From Candidatus Nomurabacteria bacterium GW2011_GWE1_32_28 (lineage in GTDB: Bacteria > Patescibacteriota > Minisyncoccia > Phycocordibacterales > UBA9973), in assembly GCA_000989515.1 (NCBI GenBank), contig LBOM01000005.1, positions 2,709 through 66,708 on the forward strand: 64,000 bases of DNA. Direction: 5' to 3'. Below, in pieces: positions 54,182-63,243 of the stretch. The first letter of the stretch is position 1. Each line of letters starts with the position of its first letter. The notes under the pieces were generated by a model, which had not been told where the DNA came from, ran no database searches, and was given only the letters and a program-made list of their open reading frames with translations. Both the position numbers and the translations under genes were made by a program.

Positions 54182-55082
54182 TAAATACTTTATAGAAATA
54201 GAAAAAAGATGTCCACACTTTCCCCATTGGGGCTTAGGTTGACATCTTTTTTCGTTTAATATATACTCTTTCAATCAGTATGATTACATTAAGAAACAAG
54301 TTTAAAAGGCGGTTTTAAGCAGACTTTCTTTTGTCTGTTGACCGCTTAAAAAGCGGTTTTTTATTTGGTAAGTATGGCTTGAAAATTGACAACTTAAATC
54401 CTATCCTAGTATTCTTGGACAACTTGCAAAAGTGTGTCCGGCATGCAGCCTGTATGCTTAGGGTCTTTTCAAAGCTAGAGATAGGAAATTGTTTAAATAA
54501 TTTTGAATGCCGAGCGGTCGGACTAGATTTTATTATAAGCATTGTTTTATCCTTATGTAATGTAAGGATTGTGATTTATAAATTTCTTAACAGGAAATTT
54601 AAGGGCGTATGGTGGATGCCTTGACTTTAAGAGGCGATGAAGGACGTGGCGTTGCTGCGATAAGCTTCGGGGAGGTGCTTAGCTACCTTTGATCCGGAGA
54701 TTTCCGAATGGGGAAACCCTATCAAGTAAACCTTGATAACTTTTATCTTTATGATAAAAGAGCATACCCTGGGAAGTGAAACATCTCAGTACCAGGAGGA
54801 ATAGAGACAAATATGTATTTCCTTAGTAGCGGCGAGCGAAAAGGAAGAAGCCCAAACCGTTCTCGCAAGAGGGCGGGGTTGTAAGATGACAATGTAGTTT
54901 ACTAGGAGAGTTAAAAAATAAATTATTAGTTGAAGTTGCTGGAAAGCGACACCGTAGGGGGTGATAGTCCCGTAAACGAAAATAATTTATCTCTTTTATT
55001 GTTATTCTTGAGTACCCCAGGACATGAATGGCCGGGGGGAATCTAGCGGAACTAACCGCTAAGGCTAAATACTCTTAAAGAT

Positions 55083-55119
<37 letters not shown>

Positions 55120-56332
55120 CAGCCCGATTAGGGCGGTGAAATAGACCTGAAACCATATGTCTACAAGGAGTCGGAGCAGGTATTTATATCTGCAACGGCG
55201 TGCCTATTGAAGAATGAGCCAACGAGTTTATTCATACTGCAAGGCTAAGCTGGCTAAAACAGCAGAGCCGAAGGGAAACCGAGTGTTAATAGCGCGAATG
55301 AGTAGTATGCATAAGACCCGAAGCCAGGTGAGCTTGCCATGAGCAGGTTGAAGTTTGTCGAAAGACAAATGGAGGACCGAACCGGTAGATCGTACAACGT
55401 CTTCGGATGACTTGTGGTAAGGAGTGAAAAGCTAATCGAACCTGGTAATAGCTGGTTCTCTCCGAAATAGCTTTAGGGCTAGCGTCACTGGAAGGTTTCG
55501 ACAGGGAGCAATCTCGCGAAACCTATCAAACTCCGAATACCAGAAACCATAGCTTGGCAGTTAGGCCATGGGGGCGAAGCTCCATTGGCCAAAAGGGAAA
55601 CAGCCCAGATCTCAAAATAAGGTCCCTAAATTTATGCTAAGTGTAAGATAAGAAGGTGGAATTTCTCTGACAATGAGGAGGTTGGCTTAGAAGCAGCCAT
55701 CCTTTAAAGATAGCGTAACAGCTCACTCATCTAGAGATTTTGCGTCGACATAGTACCGAATTTGAGGATTTCGTTTTTCTTCGGAAGAACGGAGTGGTAG
55801 GAGAGTGTTCCAATCTGCTGTGAAGTAGGACTCGTGAGAGCCTATGGAGCGTTTGGAAGTAAGAATGTTGGCACAAGTAACCGCAATGAGGGTGAGATCC
55901 CCTCACGTCGAAAGATCAAGGTTTCCTTGGTAATGTCAATCAGCCAAGGGTTAGTCGGGCCTAAGGGAATGGAGAAATCCGTACTCGATGGACATAGGGT
56001 TAATATTCCCTGACTTCTGTATTTTGTGATGGGACGACGGAGTGTAGTATGTATTGCTCATTATTGGATTTGAAGTTTGTTTACTAAAGATGAGGTGTAG
56101 GAAAATCCGCACACTGCTTTCAATGGCAAATCTAAGGTAAATGAAAAGTCTTAAGCCTCGGTTTAGGACAATAATACAAAGCACGCTTCCAAGAAAAATC
56201 TCTAAACTTAAAAATATAGAATCCGTACCGCAAACCGACACAGGTGATCAGGTCGAGTAGACCAAGACGAACGAGTGAGTGGTCCCCAAGGAACTCGGCA
56301 AAAAAGCAGCCGTAACTTCGGGATAAGGCTTG

Positions 56333-56486
56333 CCCCCACCACTTTGGATATTTCTAAATATTTGAGAGTGTTGGGAGAGTAAGATTTAAGTATCGAGCAA
56401 AAAGAGACAATGAGGAATTAAATTAAAGCTCTTCATCATTTTTTATTTCACAGAATTTTTTTGTGAAGTATCTAAAGTGGTGGGGG
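56333..56486 (+). other. AT-rich expansion / intervening-sequence-like insertion in the helix-63 region of the 23S
   Basis: A closing stem CCCCCACCACTTT / AAAGTGGTGGGGG encloses about 128 nt of AT-rich sequence, where E. coli has a much shorter helix. Confidence 0.6.
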
Positions 56487-56640
56487 CCGCAGCGAAAGTT
56501 TCTCTGGCAACTGTTTACCAAAAACACAGCTCCCTGCGAACTCGTAAGAGGATGTATAGGGGGTGACACCTGACCAATGCCAGAAGGTCAAATATCGGCG
56601 GTGTATGTCGCAAGATGTATGCAGACTGATATAAGCCCTG

Positions 56641-56683
<43 letters not shown>

Positions 56684-57301
56684 ACCTTGTCGGGTAAGTT
56701 CCGACGCGCACGAATGGTGTAATGACTGGAGAACTGTCTCGGGGACCAGCTCGGTGAAAATACAATGCCGGTGAAGATGCCGGCTAAGTGCAGTTAGACG
56801 AAAAGACCCTAGAAGCTTTACTATAACTTGATATTGAGCATGTTTTTAAACTGCGTAGAATAGATGGGAGAGGTTTGAAGTGTACGGTTTCGGCTGTATT
56901 CTACTCGTCAGTGAAATACCATTCTTTTTGAAGGCATGTTCTAACCAATACGGCAAAAACGTATTGAGACAGTATCTGGTGGATAGTTTTACTGGGGCTG
57001 TACCCTCCTAAAAAGTAAAGGAGGGGTTTAAAGGTTAGCTAGGCGCGAATGGAAACCGTGCCGATAGTGTAATGGCACAAGCTAGCTTGACTGTAAGAGG
57101 TACATCTCAAGCAGGTGGGAAACCAGAACATAGTGATCCGACCATACGCATTAGACGCGGTGGAAGCTCAACGGATAAAAGCTACTCTAGGGATAACAGG
57201 CTAGTTCCGCCTAAGAGTTCATATCGACGGCGGAGTTCGGCACCTCGATGTCGGCTCACCTTAGCGCGGCGGTGGAGAAGCTGCCAAGCGTTTCAGACCG
57301 T

Positions 57302-57643
57302 TCTTCAGTCAATTATTAAATTGACTTCAGAACAGTCTGGATCCTCAGAGGAATAGTGAACGAAAGTGAACTACTGTTTTAATCGAAATTAACCATATTG
57401 CTGTTTGCAATATCACGGCGGTCGCGTTAAATTTATATTAACAAATCACGCGATGAAGTCGGGGTTTTCGGTGGAATCCTATCACATTTATGTGAGGACA
57501 ATACCGAGAAGAAAATTTATTTTTTCTTTGTAGAGACTACAAACCGACCCCCTTAAATTGGGGAATGTATAGTCCAATCCCATAAGTAATTATGGAAATT
57601 GCTAAAGCCTAAGGCCTAATGCCTAAAGCCTAGCATGTAGATG
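57302..57643 (+). mobile_element. ORF-less group-I-like intron at the position equivalent to E. coli 23S U2593 (boundaries provisional)
   Basis: The 3' flank resumes exactly at CGTGAGACAG. The 5' flank ends in U and the insert ends in G. A core can be drawn: GTCGG/CCGAC, TTCGGTG/TACCGAG, GACTAC/GTATAGTC, CCCC/GGGG, and an S-like AATGTATAGTCC at 57564-57575. Confidence 0.55.
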
Positions 57644-57706
57644 CGTGAGACAGGTTGGTCTCCTATCTACTGCACTCGTTGATTCTTGAGAAGATTTGCT
57701 CCTAGT

Positions 57707-58526
57707 AGGCCCGGAAGGGCTTTGCTACTTCACGAAGAAATTTGTGATGAAAAAGTGGCTAATAACGGTGAAGTCTTCATTGATGTTTCTGATTTGAGAA
57801 AAATAATATCATTCGATCCTTGATATTATGATTCGCTTGAGGACCAGAAATATGATAAGATAATACCGTGGGAAGTCGATTTAAAATTATGAAAGAAATT
57901 GAGAAAGCTTATATTGCTGGTTTTCTTGATGGAGATGGTAGTCTAATGCTTCAAATTAAAAAAAGAAGTGATAGTAAACGAGGAATTCGTTTTATGACAA
58001 CCATTTGTTTCTATCAAGACACTAGACATGAAAAGACTTTATATTGGATGAAAAAGATTTTAGGTATTGGTTATATTTCCAGAAGAAATGATGGAATGAC
58101 TGAACTTAGAATAAATGGATATGTGCAGATTGCAAAAATTCTTAAAGATTTATTGCCTTTTGTAAAATTCAAAAAAATACAAGCTAATATTTTATACAAA
58201 GCTTGTAATCTTTTATCTAAAACAAAGTTTAGTAATCTCTCGGAAAAACAATTAATTAAGCTCGTTGATTTAATTTTAGTTATTCAAGGTGAAAACTATG
58301 TTACTAAAAAGAAAAAAACCAAAAATGAATTGTTTAAAATTTTAAATTTGACCCCGTAACGACTTGTTTCCGACTTTATGTCGGAACGGACTTACATAAC
58401 ACTGGAAAGTTCTAATATATTTAATATATGAGAACAGGTTTATGTTTGTAATACGCCAACGCCTTAACTTTAATTAAAGAAAGGCGAAGATATAGTCTGC
58501 ACTCCTAGAAATAGGGGAGATATGTG
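57707..58526 (+). mobile_element. Group I intron inserted inside the sarcin-ricin loop of the 23S, carrying a LAGLIDADG homing-endonuclease gene
   Basis: GCTCCTAGT|...|ACGAGAGGACCGGAGTG. The 5' exon ends in U and the insert ends in G. The conserved J8/7-P7 element AAGATATAGTC lies at 58487-58497. Confidence 0.8.
57889..58359 (+). CDS. LAGLIDADG homing endonuclease (single-motif, I-CreI-like)
   Basis: MKEIEKAYIAGFLDGDGSLMLQIKK..., 156 aa from the ATG at 57889, located inside the intron. Confidence 0.9.
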   Translation: MKEIEKAYIAGFLDGDGSLMLQIKKRSDSKRGIRFMTTICFYQDTRHEKTLYWMKKILGIGYISRRNDGMTELRINGYVQIAKILKDLLPFVKFKKIQANILYKACNLLSKTKFSNLSEKQLIKLVDLILVIQGENYVTKKKKTKNELFKILNLTP

Positions 58527-58793
58527 ACGAGAGGACCGGAGTGAACTGACCTCTGGTGTACGAGCTCTATTGCCAAATGGACTGCTCGGTAGCTATGTCG
58601 GGATTGGATAACCTCTGAAAGCATCTAAGAGGGAAGCCAGCTTCAAGATTAGGAATCGTTAAGAACCGTGAGAGATGATCACGTTGATAGGCTTTAAGTG
58701 TAAGCGAGAAGTACTAATGTTTCGATTCCTGTTAAGAAATTTGTAAATCACAATTAAAAAAATAAAAAAATTCATATTAATATTCATTATTAT

Positions 58794-58902
<109 letters not shown>

Positions 58903-59167: not shown

Positions 59168-59198
59168 TTTTATATATTTATTTGTTTAAAAAATAAAA

Positions 59199-59216
59199 CC
59201 CTTGAATATTCAAGGG
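59199..59216 (+). terminator. Terminator 2 after the rRNA locus
   Basis: CCCTTGAATATTCAAGGG followed by a T-run. Confidence 0.7.
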
Positions 59217-59361
59217 TTTTTTGGGTTTTTAAAAGAGTTAAAAAAAAGATATTACTTACAATACATCATGCAATGGCTTTGGCCATTTGTTGCTGTTTTG
59301 CATTAATTATCAAATTTTTCAATTTGATTAATTCAGTCTTTTGACTGTTGATTCCAAGATT

Positions 59362-59625: not shown

Positions 59626-59654
59626 TTGACATATTCATTTTTAACTTGTAGTAT
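59626..59654 (+). promoter_or_regulatory. Near-consensus sigma70-type promoter for the 59720-62713 operon
   Basis: TTGACA (59626-59631), a 17-nt spacer, then TAGTAT (59649-59654). The leader has a GCCAAAATATTTTTGGC hairpin, and AAGGAGG precedes the ATG. Confidence 0.5.
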
Positions 59655-59719
59655 CAAATTAAGTATGTGCGCCAAAATATTTTTGGCTTTGATAACTTAA
59701 TAAAAGGAGGTACCACGTT

Positions 59720-59989
59720 ATGGCTACAGAAAGATCAGTAGTTGAAGTCAAAGCACGGTGTAAACCACTCTTAGGTCAATTACCACTAGTTGAGTTTGTT
59801 CAACAAAGTGGTAGTCCTACAGCTGCTTATACTATTATTTTTTCTGAAACTAATAGTAAAGAATTAGCAAAGGCGGGACGATGGCTTGCTGTTTTAAAGC
59901 GAGACTTTCCGCAAGAGTATAATTCTGTCATTTTTTCACTTAAATTAAGCCATGCTAATGAAGCAAGGTTAAAAGGAGAATCATCATGA
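59720..59989 (+). CDS. 89-aa protein of unknown function, first gene of the aaRS/rSAM operon
   Basis: AAGGAGG lies 7 nt upstream. Its stop overlaps the next start (ATGA at 59986-59989). No motif was recognised. Confidence 0.6.
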   Translation: MATERSVVEVKARCKPLLGQLPLVEFVQQSGSPTAAYTIIFSETNSKELAKAGRWLAVLKRDFPQEYNSVIFSLKLSHANEARLKGESS

Positions 59990-61305
59990 AAACTGTTTCT
60001 GCAAATCAACATCTCAATGTCCATGCTTGTTCTTTAAATGAATACGATAGACAAAAAATAACCATAAGCGGAGCGATTTACAGAATTCGCAAGTTAGGAG
60101 GAGGGTTATTTTTTATCGTTATTCGCGACGGAGAATCTTTGATTCAATGTAAACTTGAATCAAACGAGAGTATAATTTCTATAGAAGAATATTCTGAAGG
60201 AGATTATGTTTCTATTACGGGTATTTGTCAAAAAGAAAATCGTGCTCCACATGGAGCTGAAATTAAAGTTCAAAGTATAGAAATTTTATCAAAATCAACA
60301 GAAGAGATGCCTTTTTCTATAAATCAAAAGCTCTTTGAAGTTGGTCTAGATAGTAATCTTAACTTTCGTCCAATTAGTTTACGACATCCAAAACAGCGTG
60401 CAATTTTTGCTATTCAATCAGCAATTTCAATGCTTTTCAGGCAGGGATTAAGCTTGATTGATTTTACAGAAATTCACACTCCAAAATTAGTTTTTGCTGG
60501 CGCCGAAGGTGGAGCCAATGTATTCAAGGTAAAATACTTTGAAAGAGAACTTTTTTTGGCCCAATCACCTCAGTTTTATAAACAAATGATGGTTGGAGTT
60601 TTTGGTAAGGTAATGGAGGTGGGTCCAGTATTTAGAGCGGAACCACATGAAACTTCTCGACACCTAAATGAATATACTTCAATGGATCTCGAGGTAGGAC
60701 CAATCAAAAGTTTCGAAGATATAATGGAAATTGAAACTTATCTTCTTAGATATATTTTTGAAGAACTTCCAAAATTCTGTTCAGCAGAATTAAAATTATT
60801 AGAGGTTTCCATGCCACAGATTAATAATATTCCTATTATTAAAATGTCTGAAGCATTGGAAATCATTAGTAAAAATCGTAAAATAAAAGATAGGAGTGAT
60901 CTTGATCCTCAAGGAGAACAGATTATTTGCCAATACATTTTTAAAGAAACTGGTAGCGAATTTGTTTTTGTTACTCACTATCCGACAATTAAACGTCCTG
61001 TATATGCAATGGAAGATCCTGAAAATAATGAAGTTACATTAAGCTTTGATCTACTTTTTCGTGGATTAGAAATCACGACTGGAGGGCAAAGAATCCATGA
61101 CTACAAGATGCAAGTTGAAAAAATGAAACGTCTTGGTTATAATCCAGATGATTTTGTATCTTATCTTCAAATCCATAAATATGGTATGCCACCTCACGGT
61201 GGATTTGGTTTGGGTTTAGAGAGACTAACAATGCAACTTCTTAATCTTTCAAGTATTAAAGAAGCTTGTCTATTTCCAAGAACTATAAATAGGATAACAC
61301 CATGA
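59986..61305 (+). CDS. aspS: Class IIb aminoacyl-tRNA synthetase, archaeal/eukaryal-type aspartyl-tRNA synthetase homolog (full length, with the OB anticodon-binding domain)
   Basis: OB domain ISGAIYRIRKLGGGLFFIVIRDG, QSPQFYKQ, motif 2 VFRAEPHETSRHLNEYTSMDLE, GGQRIHDY, and motif 3 PPHGGFGLGLERL...FPRTINRITP. Confidence 0.85.
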   Translation: MKTVSANQHLNVHACSLNEYDRQKITISGAIYRIRKLGGGLFFIVIRDGESLIQCKLESNESIISIEEYSEGDYVSITGICQKENRAPHGAEIKVQSIEILSKSTEEMPFSINQKLFEVGLDSNLNFRPISLRHPKQRAIFAIQSAISMLFRQGLSLIDFTEIHTPKLVFAGAEGGANVFKVKYFERELFLAQSPQFYKQMMVGVFGKVMEVGPVFRAEPHETSRHLNEYTSMDLEVGPIKSFEDIMEIETYLLRYIFEELPKFCSAELKLLEVSMPQINNIPIIKMSEALEIISKNRKIKDRSDLDPQGEQIICQYIFKETGSEFVFVTHYPTIKRPVYAMEDPENNEVTLSFDLLFRGLEITTGGQRIHDYKMQVEKMKRLGYNPDDFVSYLQIHKYGMPPHGGFGLGLERLTMQLLNLSSIKEACLFPRTINRITP

Positions 61306-62603
61306 AAAACTCAGAATATAAAACAAGGCTTTTCCATGGTTTGCCTGCAGTTTTTTGCAATAACCATTGGGTAGTAATATCTCCTTACGCTGGAGAACTG
61401 GTTCGTATTGATGATGATAAATTTGATAGTCAGGAAACAAAAATAGAGCTAGAAAAGAAAGGATTCTTTGGACATCCATCAGAAAAAGGACCTGGTGCTT
61501 TAAGTGATTACCTTCAGTTGACCTTAATTACAAACAGTGATTGCAATTTAAAATGTAGTTATTGTTTTGCTAACGCTGGAGAAACTAAGATTGTTATGGA
61601 AGAGAATGTGGCTTTTGCTGCGGTTCGTTATTCTGTTAAAAAAGCAAAAAGCAGAGATTTATTAATTTCATTCTTTGGTGGTGAACCTTCTTTAACCCAG
61701 TCATTGATTAAAAAAGTTGTTGCTTATGCAAAGCAATCAATAATCGGTACTGAAGTTAAAAAAGTACGTTTTAATATTACCACTAATGGAGTAATGAGTA
61801 AGTCTTTCTTAAACTTTTTAATTGATAATGATTTTTTTCTTACAATTTCAATGGATGGATTACCTATTGTTCAAAACCATCAAAGACCACTAAGATATCC
61901 ATCAAAAGGAAGCTTTGACTCTTCTCCAATTTTGGAAAGAACAGTTAAAACGTTAGTTGCTAAAAAGCATGAATTTATGATCAGAGCTACAGTTACTGAT
62001 TTTTCTGTAAAATATCTTGTGCAAACAATTCAGTATTTAGATAATCTTGGAGTGACTCAATTTCACTGTGAAGTTATAAATCTTGCTGGTAGAGCCATAA
62101 TTAAAACTAAAGGACAACCAATGAAACGTCCGGCAGTAGATGATTTTATAGAAAATCTTAAAGCTTCTATCTTAGAAGCTGGTAAACTAGGAATGGGAAT
62201 TTTAAACTCATCTTACATGAATCTTCTTCAACCATCAGTGCATTTCTGTGATGGTGTGGGAGGAAATAGAATTTCTGTTTCTTATACCGGTGAAGTAACT
62301 ACTTGTCTTGAAGTACAAGGTGGTTGTCATCCAACAGCTGATAATTTTATTATCGGTGCTTATAATAAAGAAACAGGTGATATAGATATTAGTTCTTTAA
62401 AGCAGCTAAAAATTTGCAGTAATCCAATTACTAGTCAAAATTCTTGCTGTAAGGATTGTTTCGCTATTTACATTTGTGGTGGCGGATGTCCAATTCGTAA
62501 CTATCACATGACAGGTGATCAAAATAAAGTAGATCTTTTTCGTTGTCAGGTTATTAAATCAATTTTACCATTTATCTTTGATCTTTTTGACCAAAGCAGT
62601 TAA
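61302..62603 (+). CDS. Radical SAM enzyme with a C-terminal SPASM domain (peptide-maturase-like)
   Basis: CNLKCSYC (CX3CX2C), GGEPSL and the SPASM motif CKDCFAIYICGGGC (CX2CX5CX3C). An extension of about 80 aa precedes the cluster. Its start overlaps the aspS-like stop (ATGA). Confidence 0.85.
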   Translation: MKNSEYKTRLFHGLPAVFCNNHWVVISPYAGELVRIDDDKFDSQETKIELEKKGFFGHPSEKGPGALSDYLQLTLITNSDCNLKCSYCFANAGETKIVMEENVAFAAVRYSVKKAKSRDLLISFFGGEPSLTQSLIKKVVAYAKQSIIGTEVKKVRFNITTNGVMSKSFLNFLIDNDFFLTISMDGLPIVQNHQRPLRYPSKGSFDSSPILERTVKTLVAKKHEFMIRATVTDFSVKYLVQTIQYLDNLGVTQFHCEVINLAGRAIIKTKGQPMKRPAVDDFIENLKASILEAGKLGMGILNSSYMNLLQPSVHFCDGVGGNRISVSYTGEVTTCLEVQGGCHPTADNFIIGAYNKETGDIDISSLKQLKICSNPITSQNSCCKDCFAIYICGGGCPIRNYHMTGDQNKVDLFRCQVIKSILPFIFDLFDQSS

Positions 62604-62638
62604 ATAGATTAAAATGAATAAGAAGGAGGTGATAAAAG

Positions 62639-62713
62639 ATGAAGACTTATAAACTTATAATTCCAAAAGGAATTATCGTTAAACAAGGTCGCGTTGCTTC
62701 TTGTGACGATTAA
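62639..62713 (+). CDS. Unannotated 24-aa peptide, the candidate precursor or substrate peptide
   Basis: AAGGAGG, then 7 nt, then ATG. The product is MKTYKLIIPKGIIVKQGRVASCDD. It lies 35 nt after the rSAM stop and directly before the terminator. Confidence 0.45.
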   Translation: MKTYKLIIPKGIIVKQGRVASCDD

Positions 62714-62741
62714 ATTCAAGCCAGTTATTCTGGCACATCAA

Positions 62742-62769
62742 GGGATAGAAAAATTAATTTTTCTATCCC
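62742..62769 (+). terminator. Operon terminator
   Basis: GGGATAGAAAAA-TTAA-TTTTTCTATCCC followed by TTTTATT. Confidence 0.75.
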
Positions 62770-62841
62770 TTTTATTATTTTACATCATTGTAAATTTATT
62801 TTAATAATTGTAATATAAATGAGTTCCCTAGTTAAATATTT

Positions 62842-63243
62842 ATGTATAAAAAAGAACAAGAAATAGAAATTAAAAACTTATCACTTTTACCTAAGAATAT
62901 TTTTCATTTAGTTCCTGAAGAACTATTTAATAAGTTTATTAATAAAAATGGTGATTATGATTGTAGATATAAAAAAGTATGGGGAAATAATTCTCCTTTT
63001 ATACATACTACACCCACAAAAAAGCAATTAAAAAAAAGAGTCGCTGATGTTAATTGGTCAAAATATCCAATAAAAAAGAATTTTTTATTATTAAAAATAG
63101 ACACAAGAAAAATTAACAGCAAGGTGACCTATTCAATCTTTGAAAATAATATTTACCACCACATCTGGGGAAAATTACTAAAAGAATCTTTTCAGATAAT
63201 AGATGTCGTTCGTGACAAAAATGGTAAATTTTTATTTTTATAA
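62842..63243 (+). CDS. DUF952-like small protein
   Basis: The pattern SPFIHTTPTKKQL...LLLLKID...YHHIWGKL resembles DUF952 (FIH...Q...LLxID...PHxYG). Confidence 0.5.
   Translation: MYKKEQEIEIKNLSLLPKNIFHLVPEELFNKFINKNGDYDCRYKKVWGNNSPFIHTTPTKKQLKKRVADVNWSKYPIKKNFLLLKIDTRKINSKVTYSIFENNIYHHIWGKLLKESFQIIDVVRDKNGKFLFL

What the first reader, a model, noticed from the sequence alone, without database searches (positions are those of the whole stretch)
59626..62769. Self-contained operon coupling an AspRS homolog, a radical SAM/SPASM enzyme and a 24-aa peptide ending in Cys-Asp-Asp: candidate undescribed aaRS-linked peptide-modification system
Seen in sequence:
- The unit begins at a near-consensus promoter (TTGACA-17-TAGTAT) and ends at a strong terminator (62742-62769).
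- It contains four ORFs: an 89-aa protein, a full-length archaeal-type AspRS homolog, a radical SAM enzyme and a 24-aa peptide.
- The AspRS homolog keeps its OB anticodon-binding domain and motifs 1-3.
- The radical SAM enzyme has CX3CX2C, a canonical SPASM CX2CX5CX3C motif and about 80 extra N-terminal residues.
- The peptide is an unannotated ORF with its own AAGGAGG: MKTYKLIIPKGIIVKQGRVASCDD.
- The first three genes are joined by ATGA start/stop overlaps (59986-59989 and 61302-61305), which implies translational coupling.
- The block looks slightly GC-richer than its AT-rich flanks, and it sits between the rRNA locus and unrelated genes.

Established knowledge:
- SPASM radical SAM enzymes are typical maturases of small peptides (sactipeptides, ranthipeptides, PqqE, MftC).
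- They often carry an N-terminal peptide-recognition (RRE) domain.
- The ranthipeptide enzyme PapB makes thioethers between Cys sulfur and the Asp beta-carbon.
- Extra aaRS copies inside biosynthetic clusters are classic self-resistance genes.
- Microcin C is a peptide prodrug whose warhead mimics aspartyl-adenylate and poisons AspRS.
- Some aaRS paralogs modify proteins or carrier proteins instead of tRNA (EpmA/PoxA, aa:carrier-protein ligases).

Inference, three competing models:
1. A RiPP with a Cys-to-Asp crosslink or C-terminal processing, with the AspRS copy acting as immunity.
2. The AspRS homolog supplies or attaches Asp (note the C-terminal Asp-Asp), or recognises the Asp tail.
3. It is the housekeeping aspS, merely co-transcribed.

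I do not know of a described system with this four-gene architecture.
Basis: partly seen in the sequence, partly recalled or inferred. Interest (0 to 1): 0.9.

Follow-up and report, generated by a model that had tools for sequence, protein, structure and literature searches.

The report
Radical-SAM peptide system linked to AspRS
A tiny-genome (CPR) bacterium carries an undescribed peptide-modification system: a radical SAM enzyme plus a 24-residue peptide ending in Cys-Asp-Asp, which in many relatives stays next to an aspartyl-tRNA synthetase gene, and this suggests (unproven) that its product acts on that enzyme.

Summary

The 24-aa ORF is a real gene. It lies next to the rSAM gene (usually directly downstream) in about 18 CPR loci, always ending C-D-D or, in two loci, C-F-D. 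Its codon-substitution pattern is that of a coding sequence. More distant rSAM relatives in other phyla have partner peptides or 68-76-aa proteins ending C-x-D, so C-x-Asp-COOH is the family signature.

The rSAM is a CteB/PapB-like SPASM enzyme that reaches no curated family cut-off. The most likely reaction is a Cys-to-Asp thioether at the C-terminus.

The AspRS is a canonical archaeal-type "AspRS2". It is not part of the wider family's core. In the CPR C-D-D subtype it stays beside the rSAM gene through at least four gene orders and two AspRS clades.

Other recurring neighbours:
- a DUF952/Tpt1-like ADP-ribosyltransferase-fold protein (window 62842-63243)
- an Asp-type S51 peptidase
- a RimL/MccE-like acetyltransferase

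Best reading, about 0.4: an aspartate-derived product aimed at AspRS, with the AspRS copy as self-protection. I could not test whether this genome has a second AspRS.

The parts
59195..59220 (.). Bidirectional terminator-like hairpin after the 5S rRNA; upstream boundary of the unit
   Evidence: 11-pair stem with T-runs on both strands; 5S rRNA at 58796-58901.
59626..59654 (+). Promoter-like TTGACA-17-TAGTAT
   Evidence: 10 of 12 positions match. Such matches are not above shuffled expectation in this AT-rich DNA, so this is only a candidate.
59720..59989 (+). p89: small all-helical protein of unknown function, translationally coupled to the AspRS gene (ATGA overlap)
59986..61305 (+). Archaeal-type (AspRS2-like) aspartyl-tRNA synthetase with an OB anticodon-binding domain and a class II core
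   Evidence: NF003483 523 bits (cut-off 353), TIGR00458 386 (368), PF01336 and PF00152. Best solved relative is T. thermophilus AspRS2 1N9W, E 2.8e-97, with QSPQ, FRAE and GLGLERL conserved. It belongs to a clade of about 47 clusters that is sister to Firmicutes AspRS2.
61302..62603 (+). Radical SAM/SPASM peptide maturase (CteB/PapB-like) with a family-specific N-terminal ~75-residue domain
   Evidence: PF04055. Best NCBIfam hits are PapB at 155.6 bits (cut-off 340) and the SCIFF maturase at 128.7 (cut-off 425), so none passes. Best PDB hit is CteB 5WGG, E 2.7e-43. CX3CX2C and the seven SPASM cysteines are invariant. The family has about 45 clusters, followed by a gap to E 1e-30.
62587..62615 (+). 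Promoter-like TTGACC-17-TAAAAT just upstream of the peptide gene; a possible extra precursor promoter
   Evidence: 10 of 12 positions match, which is not above chance. Inference only.
62623..62713 (+). Shine-Dalgarno AAGGAGG plus the 24-aa precursor peptide MKTYKLIIPKGIIVKQGRVASCDD (ATG at 62639)
   Evidence: Orthologous ORFs with a Shine-Dalgarno sequence lie next to the rSAM gene in L004-L007, L013, L016, L083-L088, L113, L169, L171, L172 and L176-L178. Substitutions are enriched at the third codon position (721/506/1181). The Cys, Asp and Asp codons vary synonymously and all three stop codons are used.
62740..62771 (+). Intrinsic terminator-like hairpin after the peptide gene
   Evidence: 14 pairs followed by TTATTATTTT.
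62842..63243 (+). p133: DUF952/Tpt1-like ADP-ribosyltransferase-fold protein, a conserved downstream partner of the rSAM-peptide pair

Best explanation
The core is a new family of radical SAM/SPASM peptide-modification systems. Their substrate is a short peptide, or in distant branches a 68-76-aa protein, with the invariant C-terminus Cys-X-Asp-COOH.

Proposed steps:
1. The rSAM enzyme is CteB/PapB-like. It most likely abstracts a hydrogen from the terminal Asp and joins its carbon to the Cys sulfur, making a small C-terminal thioether ring (-2 Da). This step is inferred.
2. In the CPR 'C-D-D' subtype seen in this window, the modified tail is probably processed further. The candidates are an Asp-type S51 peptidase and a DUF952/Tpt1-like ADP-ribosyltransferase-fold protein (p133). 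The result would be an aspartate-derived product. This step is inferred.
3. That product interferes with aspartyl-tRNA synthetase. The AspRS2-type gene with its p89 partner is co-transcribed here and kept adjacent in relatives. It would serve as an insensitive or extra target copy. The RimL/MccE-like acetyltransferase and the S66/S51 peptidases found in relatives would be alternative self-protection devices. This step is inferred.

What is shown:
- the gene content
- the conservation of the peptide and its C-x-D tail
- the enzyme class
- the conserved linkage
- the fold of p133

Rough probabilities:
- genuine rSAM-peptide pair: 0.9
- Cys-Asp thioether: 0.55
- functional AspRS link of some kind: 0.75
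- immunity or target relationship specifically: 0.4
For: Peptide:
- Peptide orthologues lie next to the rSAM gene in about 18 CPR loci. They share a [KA]G[IV] leader motif and the tail G-R-[LV]-[GA]-[NS]-C-D-D.
- The codon-position substitution pattern is that of a coding sequence.
- Relatives at 30-39% identity in Alphaproteobacteria, Lachnospiraceae, Nitrospirae, Chlorobiales, archaea and metagenomes have partners ending CHD, CFD, CED, CND, CKD, CVD or CRD.

Enzyme class:
- Best NCBIfam matches are the thioether formers PapB, the SCIFF maturase and QhpD.
- Best solved structure is CteB. The seven-Cys SPASM motif is invariant.
- PapB makes Cys-Asp thioethers and fully converts CX1D substrates in vitro (PMC9413430).

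AspRS linkage, seen in at least four arrangements:
- p89-AspRS-rSAM-peptide: window, L004, L083, L085, L086/L177, L101
- rSAM-peptide-p133-GNAT(-)-p89-AspRS: L013
- divergent: L005, L176
- clade-B AspRS upstream: L169 colinear, L007 as a tandem pair

Further points on the AspRS:
- At least 17 of the ~47 clade-A AspRS clusters share contig lengths with rSAM-family clusters.
- Two complete AspRS genes lie in one locus in L007 and in L165. Duplicated aaRS genes are unexpected in minimal genomes.
- The two CPR loci with a C-F-D tail (L172, L178) lack a full AspRS and carry a methyltransferase instead.

Asp-directed or immunity-type neighbours:
- S51 peptidase (PepE/cyanophycinase family): window genome L001, L005, L084, L085, L086/L177, L113, L171 and L176, plus non-CPR L021
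- PF13302 RimL-type GNAT: L006, L007, L013, L169, L176 and L177
- S66 peptidase (the family that holds MccF): L004, and next to clade-A AspRS in L165 and L167

Precedents:
- MccE-CTD (a GNAT) and MccF (an S66 peptidase) protect microcin C producers, and microcin C targets AspRS (PMC12250964).
- AspRS genes inside actinobacterial mcc-like clusters, and AgnB2 and AbmK, are described as self-resistance aaRS copies (PMC8323819).
Against: - No chemistry was tested. The thioether is inferred by analogy, and the rSAM scores far below every curated family cut-off.
- The locus has no exporter and no obvious leader protease, which a secreted toxin would usually need.
- The AspRS looks entirely canonical, with all motifs intact and high HMM scores. 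Nothing marks it as 'resistant'.
- In other genomes clade-A AspRS sits in housekeeping surroundings (dnaG-rpoD, gyrA-ruvB) without the rSAM. In the NJ tree the rSAM-linked and unlinked members are interleaved. This is compatible with a working AspRS of a CPR sub-lineage.
- I could not check whether the window's genome has another AspRS. None lies in the 64 kb.
- Six CPR C-D-D loci show no AspRS in the sequence available (L006, L016, L084, L087, L088, L171). Most of those contigs are short.
- GNAT, S66 and S51 are large families, and the similarity to RimL, MccF and PepE is weak.
Confidence: 0.4

Rival explanations
1. The AspRS is simply the organism's working synthetase, either its only AspRS or a non-discriminating AspRS2 used with GatCAB to make Asn-tRNA. 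The rSAM-peptide cassette sits beside it for expression or for historical reasons. The peptide system then has an unrelated role, such as a signalling or structural RiPP like SCIFF.
For: - Canonical AspRS2 by HMM scores and active-site motifs.
- The location, directly after the rRNA genes, is a housekeeping one.
- Clade-A AspRS also occurs without the rSAM, next to dnaG-rpoD or gyrA-ruvB, and such members are interleaved with rSAM-linked ones in the tree.
- The wider rSAM family functions without any AspRS neighbour.
- No second AspRS lies in the 64 kb.
Against: - Adjacency survives at least four different gene orders and involves two AspRS clades that are only 34-40% identical. That is hard to explain without selection.
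- The clade is small, about 47 clusters among 5.8 billion proteins, and at least 17 of them share contigs with the rSAM.
- Tandem or paired full AspRS genes occur in L007 and L165.
- The C-D-D versus C-F-D tail correlates with presence or absence of AspRS.
Confidence: 0.27
2. The AspRS has a biosynthetic role. It would supply Asp-tRNA to a tRNA-dependent transferase, or activate Asp itself, so that aspartate is added to or exchanged on the peptide. This would resemble PEARL enzymes or VlmL/VlmA logic.
For: - The C-D-D tail is specific to AspRS-linked loci.
- GNAT-fold proteins recur nearby.
- AsnA-like tRNA-synt_2 cores without an anticodon domain occur in related neighbourhoods, L167 and L178.
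- A DUF2156/LPG_synthase_C gene lies three genes downstream in this genome.
Against: - Both Asp residues are gene-encoded in every orthologue, so nothing needs to be added.
- The GNAT is a PF13302 acetyl-CoA-type N-acetyltransferase, not a Fem, L/F or DUF2156 transferase.
- The DUF2156 gene is not conserved in other loci.
- The AspRS keeps a normal anticodon-binding domain.
Confidence: 0.1
3. The modified peptide is an intracellular ligand, regulator or cofactor of AspRS, possibly acting through p89. It would tune Asp/Asn-tRNA charging rather than poison a competitor.
For: - No exporter or protease lies in the operon.
- p89 is translationally coupled to AspRS and travels with it even without the rSAM.
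- The peptide's Asp-Asp tail could occupy the Asp site.
Against: - The same peptide family works without AspRS in other phyla.
- The detoxification-type neighbours (GNAT, S66, S51) are better explained by a harmful intermediate.
- There is no direct evidence of binding.
Confidence: 0.1

Closest known systems
PapB/PapA ranthipeptide system (freyrasin), NCBIfam NF047865
   Same: SPASM radical SAM enzyme and the best-scoring curated family. It joins Cys sulfur to the Asp beta-carbon and accepts a one-residue spacer (CX1D) in vitro (PMC9413430).
   Different: The score of 155.6 bits is far below the 340 cut-off. The natural PapA has six CX3D motifs, whereas here there is one C-x-D at the extreme C-terminus. 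The N-terminal domain, the leader motif and the neighbours (AspRS, DUF952-like protein, S51) also differ.
CteB/SCIFF thioether maturase (PDB 5WGG, TIGR03974)
   Same: Closest solved structure by sequence (E 2.7e-43). Same seven-Cys SPASM layout and an N-terminal extra domain. It is often a two-gene system without an exporter.
   Different: The TIGR03974 score of 128.7 is below the 425 cut-off. SCIFF precursors have six cysteines in about 45 residues, whereas this peptide has one Cys.
Mycofactocin (MftA/MftC/MftE) and PQQ (PqqA/PqqE)
   Same: A SPASM rSAM acts on the last residues of a small scaffold peptide, and a dedicated peptidase then releases a small molecule. The S51 peptidase could play the MftE role.
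   Different: Different residues (Val-Tyr, or Glu and Tyr). A separate RRE protein (MftB, PqqD) is present there and not detected here. No link to an aaRS.
Microcin C and McC-like peptidyl-nucleotides
   Same: A ribosomal peptide whose C-terminal Asp-type residue becomes an AspRS poison. Immunity comes from a RimL-like GNAT (MccE-CTD) and an S66 peptidase (MccF). Some actinobacterial clusters carry an AspRS gene as putative immunity (PMC12250964, PMC8323819).
   Different: There is no MccB/ThiF enzyme here. The precursor ends in Asp, not Asn, and the tailoring enzyme is a radical SAM protein. Targeting of AspRS is only inferred.
Self-resistance aaRS copies in biosynthetic clusters (AgnB2 LeuRS, AbmK SerRS, MupM IleRS)
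   Same: A complete, functional-looking aaRS gene is embedded in and co-inherited with biosynthetic genes.
   Different: A second housekeeping copy and insensitivity to the product are not shown for this genome. The host is a minimal CPR genome and the product is a RiPP.
Thermus/Deinococcus AspRS2 (archaeal-type non-discriminating AspRS, PDB 1N9W)
   Same: Best solved relative of the AspRS. It is a second AspRS found in bacteria that also have a bacterial-type AspRS.
   Different: AspRS2 there serves Asn-tRNA synthesis and is not linked to peptide-modification genes.

Membership tests
Radical SAM/SPASM RiPP maturase (general class) | CX3CX2C radical SAM cluster motif | tested here: met
   C81, C85 and C88 are invariant in 25 homologues. 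PF04055 scores 36.3 bits against a cut-off of 29.5.
Radical SAM/SPASM RiPP maturase (general class) | C-terminal SPASM domain with seven cysteines for two auxiliary clusters | tested here: met
   C316, C335, C383, C386, C392, C396 and C415 are invariant. They align with the SPASM region of CteB and anSME.
Radical SAM/SPASM RiPP maturase (general class) | Conserved short precursor gene next to the enzyme gene | tested here: met
   About 18 CPR loci and many distant loci have a partner ending C-x-D. The substitution pattern is that of a coding sequence.
Radical SAM/SPASM RiPP maturase (general class) | RiPP recognition element (PqqD-like) domain or partner | tested here: inconclusive
   The N-terminal ~75 residues are conserved within the family. 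There is no PqqD or RRE hit in Pfam or in PDB sequences. The fold was not modelled.
PapB-family ranthipeptide maturase (NF047865) | Score at or above the curated cut-off (340 bits) | tested here: not met
   155.6 bits. The distant relative in L008 scores 170.2.
PapB-family ranthipeptide maturase (NF047865) | Thioether from Cys sulfur to a non-alpha carbon of Asp or Glu | not testable with these tools
   Only the Cys and the terminal Asp are invariant in the substrates. Confirmation needs MS and NMR.
SCIFF maturase (TIGR03974) with SCIFF precursor | Score at or above 425 bits, and a six-Cys precursor | tested here: not met
   128.7 bits. The peptide has a single Cys.
Archaeal-type non-discriminating AspRS (NF003483 / TIGR00458) | Scores above the curated cut-offs; OB anticodon-binding domain plus class II core | tested here: met
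   523.1 against 353 and 385.9 against 368.4. PF01336 and PF00152. 1N9W at E 2.8e-97 with the motifs conserved.
Archaeal-type non-discriminating AspRS (NF003483 / TIGR00458) | Charges both tRNA-Asp and tRNA-Asn | not testable with these tools
   Needs aminoacylation assays. The tRNA, asnS and gatCAB content of the genome is not available (no tRNA genes in the window).
Cluster-embedded self-resistance aaRS (AgnB2/AbmK type) | aaRS gene conserved within or adjacent to the biosynthetic genes | tested here: met
   Adjacent in 10 or more CPR loci, in at least four arrangements.
Cluster-embedded self-resistance aaRS (AgnB2/AbmK type) | A separate housekeeping copy of the same aaRS in the genome | tested here: inconclusive
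Related loci L007 and L165 do hold two full AspRS genes.
Cluster-embedded self-resistance aaRS (AgnB2/AbmK type) | Reduced sensitivity to the cluster's product | not testable with these tools
   Biochemical.
Microcin C-like peptidyl-nucleotide cluster | MccB (ThiF-type) nucleotidyltransferase and a precursor ending in Asn | tested here: not met
   No ThiF homologue in the window, and the precursor ends in Asp-Asp. The ThiF genes next to clade-A AspRS in L163, L174 and L175 have no Asn-ending short ORF beside them.
DUF952 / Tpt1-like ADP-ribosyltransferase fold (for p133) | PF06108 at or above its gathering score (23.7 bits) | tested here: not met
   20.7 bits for the window protein. All 7 orthologues hit the family weakly, best E 9.3e-6.
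DUF952 / Tpt1-like ADP-ribosyltransferase fold (for p133) | ART fold and the H-H-h / HX[S/T] motif | tested here: met

The most novel reading that the evidence does not exclude
CPR bacteria make an AspRS-directed 'Trojan horse' by a route unrelated to microcin C. A radical SAM enzyme crosslinks the C-terminal Cys-Asp-Asp of a 24-aa scaffold. A Tpt1/DUF952-like ART-fold enzyme then attaches an NAD-derived ADP-ribosyl group to the terminal aspartate carboxylate, giving an aspartyl-adenylate mimic. Alternatively an S51 peptidase releases a thio-bridged aspartate antimetabolite. The producer survives through a dedicated AspRS2 with its p89 partner, a RimL-like acetyltransferase and Asp-specific peptidases. 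This would be both a new RiPP class and the first aaRS-targeting weapon described in CPR episymbionts.
Probability: 0.15. Interest if true: 0.9.

Novelty: new variant of a known kind. Interest (0 to 1): 0.72.

Why it matters
- It would define a new, phylogenetically widespread rSAM/SPASM RiPP family that is recognisable by a simple signature (C-x-Asp at the C-terminus).
- CPR/Patescibacteria have tiny genomes and are thought to carry very little secondary metabolism. A conserved multi-gene peptide-modification cassette there is unexpected.
- Its persistent pairing with an aminoacyl-tRNA synthetase gives a concrete, testable lead to the product's target (AspRS). Target-directed genome mining exists to find exactly this kind of lead.
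- If the AspRS link is immunity, this is a second, chemically unrelated natural route to AspRS inhibition besides microcin C.
- It would also assign a first biological context to DUF952-type ART-fold proteins and to the p89 family.
- If the AspRS link is not immunity, the conserved coupling of a housekeeping synthetase to a peptide maturase still needs explaining.

Tried and rejected
- **Compositional island / recent transfer.** Rejected: block GC is 0.33 against 0.31 +/- 0.035 for the window's ORFs.
- **rSAM N-terminus as a PqqD-type RRE.** Not detectable by sequence.
- **ThiF genes beside clade-A AspRS (L163/L164, L174, L175) as classic microcin C clusters.** No short ORF ending in Asn is present. 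A conserved 56-57-aa ORF ending ...ACDG lies there instead.
- **Known anti-phage defence system.** PADLOC gives only generic viperin-core and E1 similarity.
- **Curated family for the peptide or for the 68-76-aa precursors.** None in NCBIfam r20 or Pfam.
- **Literature.** Searches for rSAM + AspRS + RiPP, ranthipeptides in CPR, and RiPPs in Patescibacteria found no description of this system.
- **Handing locus-derived p133 orthologues to structure prediction.** Solved by a composite p89+p133 homologue search, which returned only p133 relatives.

Full report
**1. What is in the window**

ORF listing and direct reading confirm the anatomy.
- An 89-aa ORF lies at 59720-59989.
- A 439-aa ORF at 59986-61305 overlaps it by ATGA.
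- A 433-aa ORF at 61302-62603 again overlaps by ATGA.
- After 35 nt comes a 24-aa ORF (62639-62713, MKTYKLIIPKGIIVKQGRVASCDD). AAGGAGG precedes it at 62623-62629.
- A 14-pair hairpin with a T-run follows at 62740-62771. A bidirectional hairpin at 59195-59220 closes the preceding 23S-5S rRNA unit.
- The TTGACA-17-TAGTAT match at 59626-59654 exists. Promoter-like matches are at chance level in this AT-rich DNA (26 found against 20.9 expected).
- The block's GC content (0.33) is ordinary for the window's ORFs (0.31 +/- 0.035).
- The source is Candidatus Nomurabacteria GW2011_GWE1_32_28, a CPR bacterium, on a 410-kb contig.

**2. The proteins**

AspRS:
- It passes both curated models for archaeal-type aspartate-tRNA(Asn) ligase (523 against 353 bits; 386 against 368). 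It has the OB anticodon-binding domain.
- Its best solved relative is Thermus thermophilus AspRS2 (1N9W, E 2.8e-97), and the QSPQ, FRAE and GLGLERL motifs are intact.

Radical SAM enzyme:
- It has CX3CX2C and a seven-Cys SPASM domain, all invariant in 25 homologues.
- Its best curated matches are thioether-forming peptide maturases: PapB 155.6 bits, the SCIFF maturase 128.7, and also QhpD. None reaches its cut-off (340, 425 and so on).
- The closest solved structure by sequence is the SCIFF maturase CteB (E 2.7e-43).
- The homologue list shows a discrete family of about 45 clusters (E below 1e-59), followed by a gap to E 1e-30.
- The N-terminal ~75 residues are conserved in the family but give no RRE/PqqD signal by sequence.

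p89:
- It has no family or PDB match. Its confident all-helical model has no fold neighbour.
- An exhaustive search finds only 30 small relatives among 1.84 billion representatives.

**3. The peptide is real, and its tail defines the family**

Scans of a genome collection and a metagenome collection with the rSAM alignment, plus look-ups of encoding contigs, gave about 20 CPR loci and about 35 more distant full-length relatives.
- Every CPR locus with enough sequence has a 24-29-aa ORF with a Shine-Dalgarno sequence next to the rSAM gene. It is usually directly downstream; in L007 it lies about 750 nt downstream, beyond a GNAT gene.
- These ORFs share a P-K-G-I-like leader motif and the tail G-R-[LV]-[GA]-[NS]-C-D-D.
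- Two loci (L172, L178) end in ...S-C-F-D.
- Across 13 orthologues, substitutions concentrate at third codon positions (721/506/1181). The Cys, Asp and Asp codons vary synonymously, and all three stop codons are used.
- Relatives at 30-39% identity occur in Alphaproteobacteria, Lachnospiraceae, Nitrospirae, Chlorobiales, archaea and metagenomes. Some have short downstream peptides (...ANERCHD...TEKCFD...RLECVD...YQPCRD). Others have 68-76-aa proteins immediately upstream that end ...AEEMCED...MVCKD or ...EQICND.

The invariant feature of the substrate is therefore Cys-X-Asp at the free C-terminus. Neither NCBIfam r20 nor Pfam has a model for any of these precursors. Literature searches found no description of the system.

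**4. Likely reaction**

The nearest characterised enzymes join Cys sulfur to a carbon of another residue. PapB does this between Cys and Asp and fully converts a CX1D substrate in vitro (PMC9413430). The most economical prediction is a Cys-S to Asp-C thioether that closes a small ring at the C-terminus. This is inference, and the enzyme is not a member of the PapB or SCIFF families by their own cut-offs.

**5. The AspRS link**

AspRS is absent from all non-CPR loci within about 6 kb, so it is not part of the family core. Within CPR it is adjacent in the following orders:
- window, L004, L083, L085, L086/L177 and L101: p89-AspRS-rSAM-peptide
- L013: rSAM-peptide-p133-GNAT(-)-p89-AspRS
- L005 and L176: divergent
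- L169 and L007: a different AspRS clade, and in L007 two tandem copies

The linked synthetases fall into two clades:
- Clade A members are 54-100% identical to the window's AspRS.
- Clade B members are 34-40% identical to clade A.

Further observations on clade A:
- It has about 47 clusters and is sister to Firmicutes AspRS2 in an NJ tree.
- At least 17 of its clusters share contig lengths with rSAM clusters.
- L007 and L165 each hold two complete AspRS genes, all passing the curated cut-off.
- The two C-F-D loci lack a full AspRS and carry a TehB-like methyltransferase instead.

Against a special role:
- Clade-A AspRS also occurs without the rSAM in housekeeping surroundings.
- Linked and unlinked members are interleaved in the tree.
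- Six C-D-D loci, mostly on short contigs, show no AspRS in the available sequence.
- I could not examine the rest of this genome for a second AspRS. None lies in the window.

From memory only: most CPR genomes carry a bacterial-type aspS, which would make this archaeal-type enzyme an extra copy. That was not tested here.

**6. Other conserved partners**

All-against-all clustering of the neighbourhoods and tblastn show the following.

(a) p133, the ORF just after the terminator (62842-63243):
- It follows the peptide gene in six further loci, and its family has only 27 clusters.
- The H...H-x-[ST] motif of that clade is conserved (PMC7955679, PMC8120803).
- A NUDIX gene follows it in L004.
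- A 2H-phosphoesterase gene overlaps the rSAM start in L172.
- Both of these enzyme classes handle ADP-ribose-type metabolites.

(b) An S51 peptidase of the PepE/cyanophycinase family, whose characterised members cleave at aspartate:
- It lies downstream in this genome (L001, just beyond the window) and in L005, L084, L085, L086/L177, L113, L171 and L176.
- It also occurs in the proteobacterial locus L021.

(c) A PF13302 RimL-type GNAT, in L006, L007, L013, L169, L176 and L177.

(d) An S66 peptidase, in L004 and beside clade-A AspRS in L165 and L167.

The MccE GNAT domain and the S66 peptidase MccF are the classic self-immunity proteins against processed microcin C, which inhibits AspRS (PMC12250964). 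AspRS genes in actinobacterial mcc-like clusters, and AgnB2 and AbmK, are described as resistance copies (PMC8323819).

**7. Synthesis**

The best-supported picture is a new rSAM/SPASM system acting on a C-terminal Cys-X-Asp.
- Its CPR C-D-D subtype has acquired, and keeps, an AspRS2 (with p89), an ART-fold protein, an Asp-type peptidase and a RimL-like acetyltransferase.
- This set fits an aspartate-derived product that is dangerous to AspRS, with the linked genes providing tailoring and self-protection.
- It differs from microcin C in having no ThiF enzyme and no Asn terminus.
- The immunity step is inference, at about 0.4.
- The main rival is that the AspRS is a normal working enzyme. A whole-genome aspS count and an inhibition assay would separate the two.

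**8. Verdict**

- The AspRS is an accessory specific to the CPR C-D-D subtype rather than a defining component.
- I rate it a new variant of known kinds (SPASM RiPP maturation; cluster-embedded aaRS), with interest 0.72.

Noticed in passing
L174 8726-8899 (+); L175 9229-9399 (-); L163/L164 10229-10399 (-): Clade-A AspRS genes that lack the rSAM neighbour are followed by a 251-252-aa ThiF/MoeB-like gene. Beside it lies a conserved, unannotated 56-57-aa ORF ending ...ISGF[AC]ACDG. It is 56-58% identical between loci, its orientation varies, and it has no Pfam hit. This may be a second kind of Cys-Asp-tailed peptide system tied to the same AspRS clade.
   Followed up: partly
L165 2188-7849 (- strand): A second full archaeal-type AspRS (427 aa, 523 bits) is the last gene of an operon. 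The operon also holds a 499-aa Fer4_12 rSAM-like protein, a methyltransferase, a 278-aa radical SAM protein and a 391-aa unknown. It runs divergently from a clade-A AspRS followed by GrpB, an S66 peptidase, CYTH and a pyrophosphatase-like gene.
   Followed up: partly
L167 8001-14062; L178 785-3815: A recurring module consists of an AsnRS/AsnA-like tRNA-synt_2 core without an anticodon domain (369-371 aa), an S66 peptidase and a methyltransferase, plus AdoMet decarboxylase in L167. In L167 it sits beside a clade-A AspRS and a third, divergent AspRS-like gene. In L178 it lies 4 kb upstream of the C-F-D-type rSAM.
   Followed up: partly
L007 2989-5799 (- strand): Two tandem full-length archaeal-type AspRS genes, 46% identical to each other and both above the NF003483 cut-off, lie directly upstream of and divergent from the rSAM gene.
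   Followed up: partly
window 57868-58359: A LAGLIDADG-type ORF (PF00961 in the source's own gene calls) sits in the 1.4-kb stretch between the end of the 23S rRNA match (57407) and the 5S rRNA (58796). I did not resolve whether it is an rRNA intron or a spacer insertion.
   Followed up: no
window 54589-58901 and the whole window: The 23S and 5S rRNA genes are present, but the 64 kb holds no 16S rRNA gene and no tRNA gene. The rRNA operon therefore appears to be split.
   Followed up: no
L001 14099-15001 (about 1.4 kb beyond the window's end): A stand-alone LPG_synthase_C (DUF2156) gene, from an aminoacyl-tRNA-dependent transferase family, lies three genes downstream of p133 in this genome. 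It is not conserved in the other loci. From memory only: fungal ErdS fuses AspRS to this domain.
   Followed up: partly
L004 7216-7602; L172 7463-8008: A NUDIX hydrolase directly follows the DUF952-like gene in L004. A 2H-phosphoesterase (2'-5' RNA ligase superfamily) gene overlaps the rSAM start in L172, which lacks p133. Both enzyme classes act on ADP-ribose-type or cyclic-phosphate metabolites.
   Followed up: partly
L008 5698-5904; L094 5376-5606; also L011, L017, L089, L091, L096, L099: Distant rSAM relatives (Nitrospirae, Chlorobiales, metagenomes) have 68-76-aa proteins directly upstream. These carry a conserved ...DLP[IL][KR]V... segment and end in ...AEEMCED, ...MVCKD or ...EQICND. 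They have no Pfam or NCBIfam model.
   Followed up: partly
L163/L164 4579-5988: A diversity-generating-retroelement-like pair (bAvd plus a reverse transcriptase) lies about 2 kb upstream of the p90-AspRS-ThiF genes.
   Followed up: no
L005 3236-4451; L176 3249-4574: A roughly 441-aa protein with no Pfam match lies between the peptide gene and the S51 peptidase gene in two loci. It is fragmented into three ORFs in L005. It may be a further member of the gene set.
   Followed up: no
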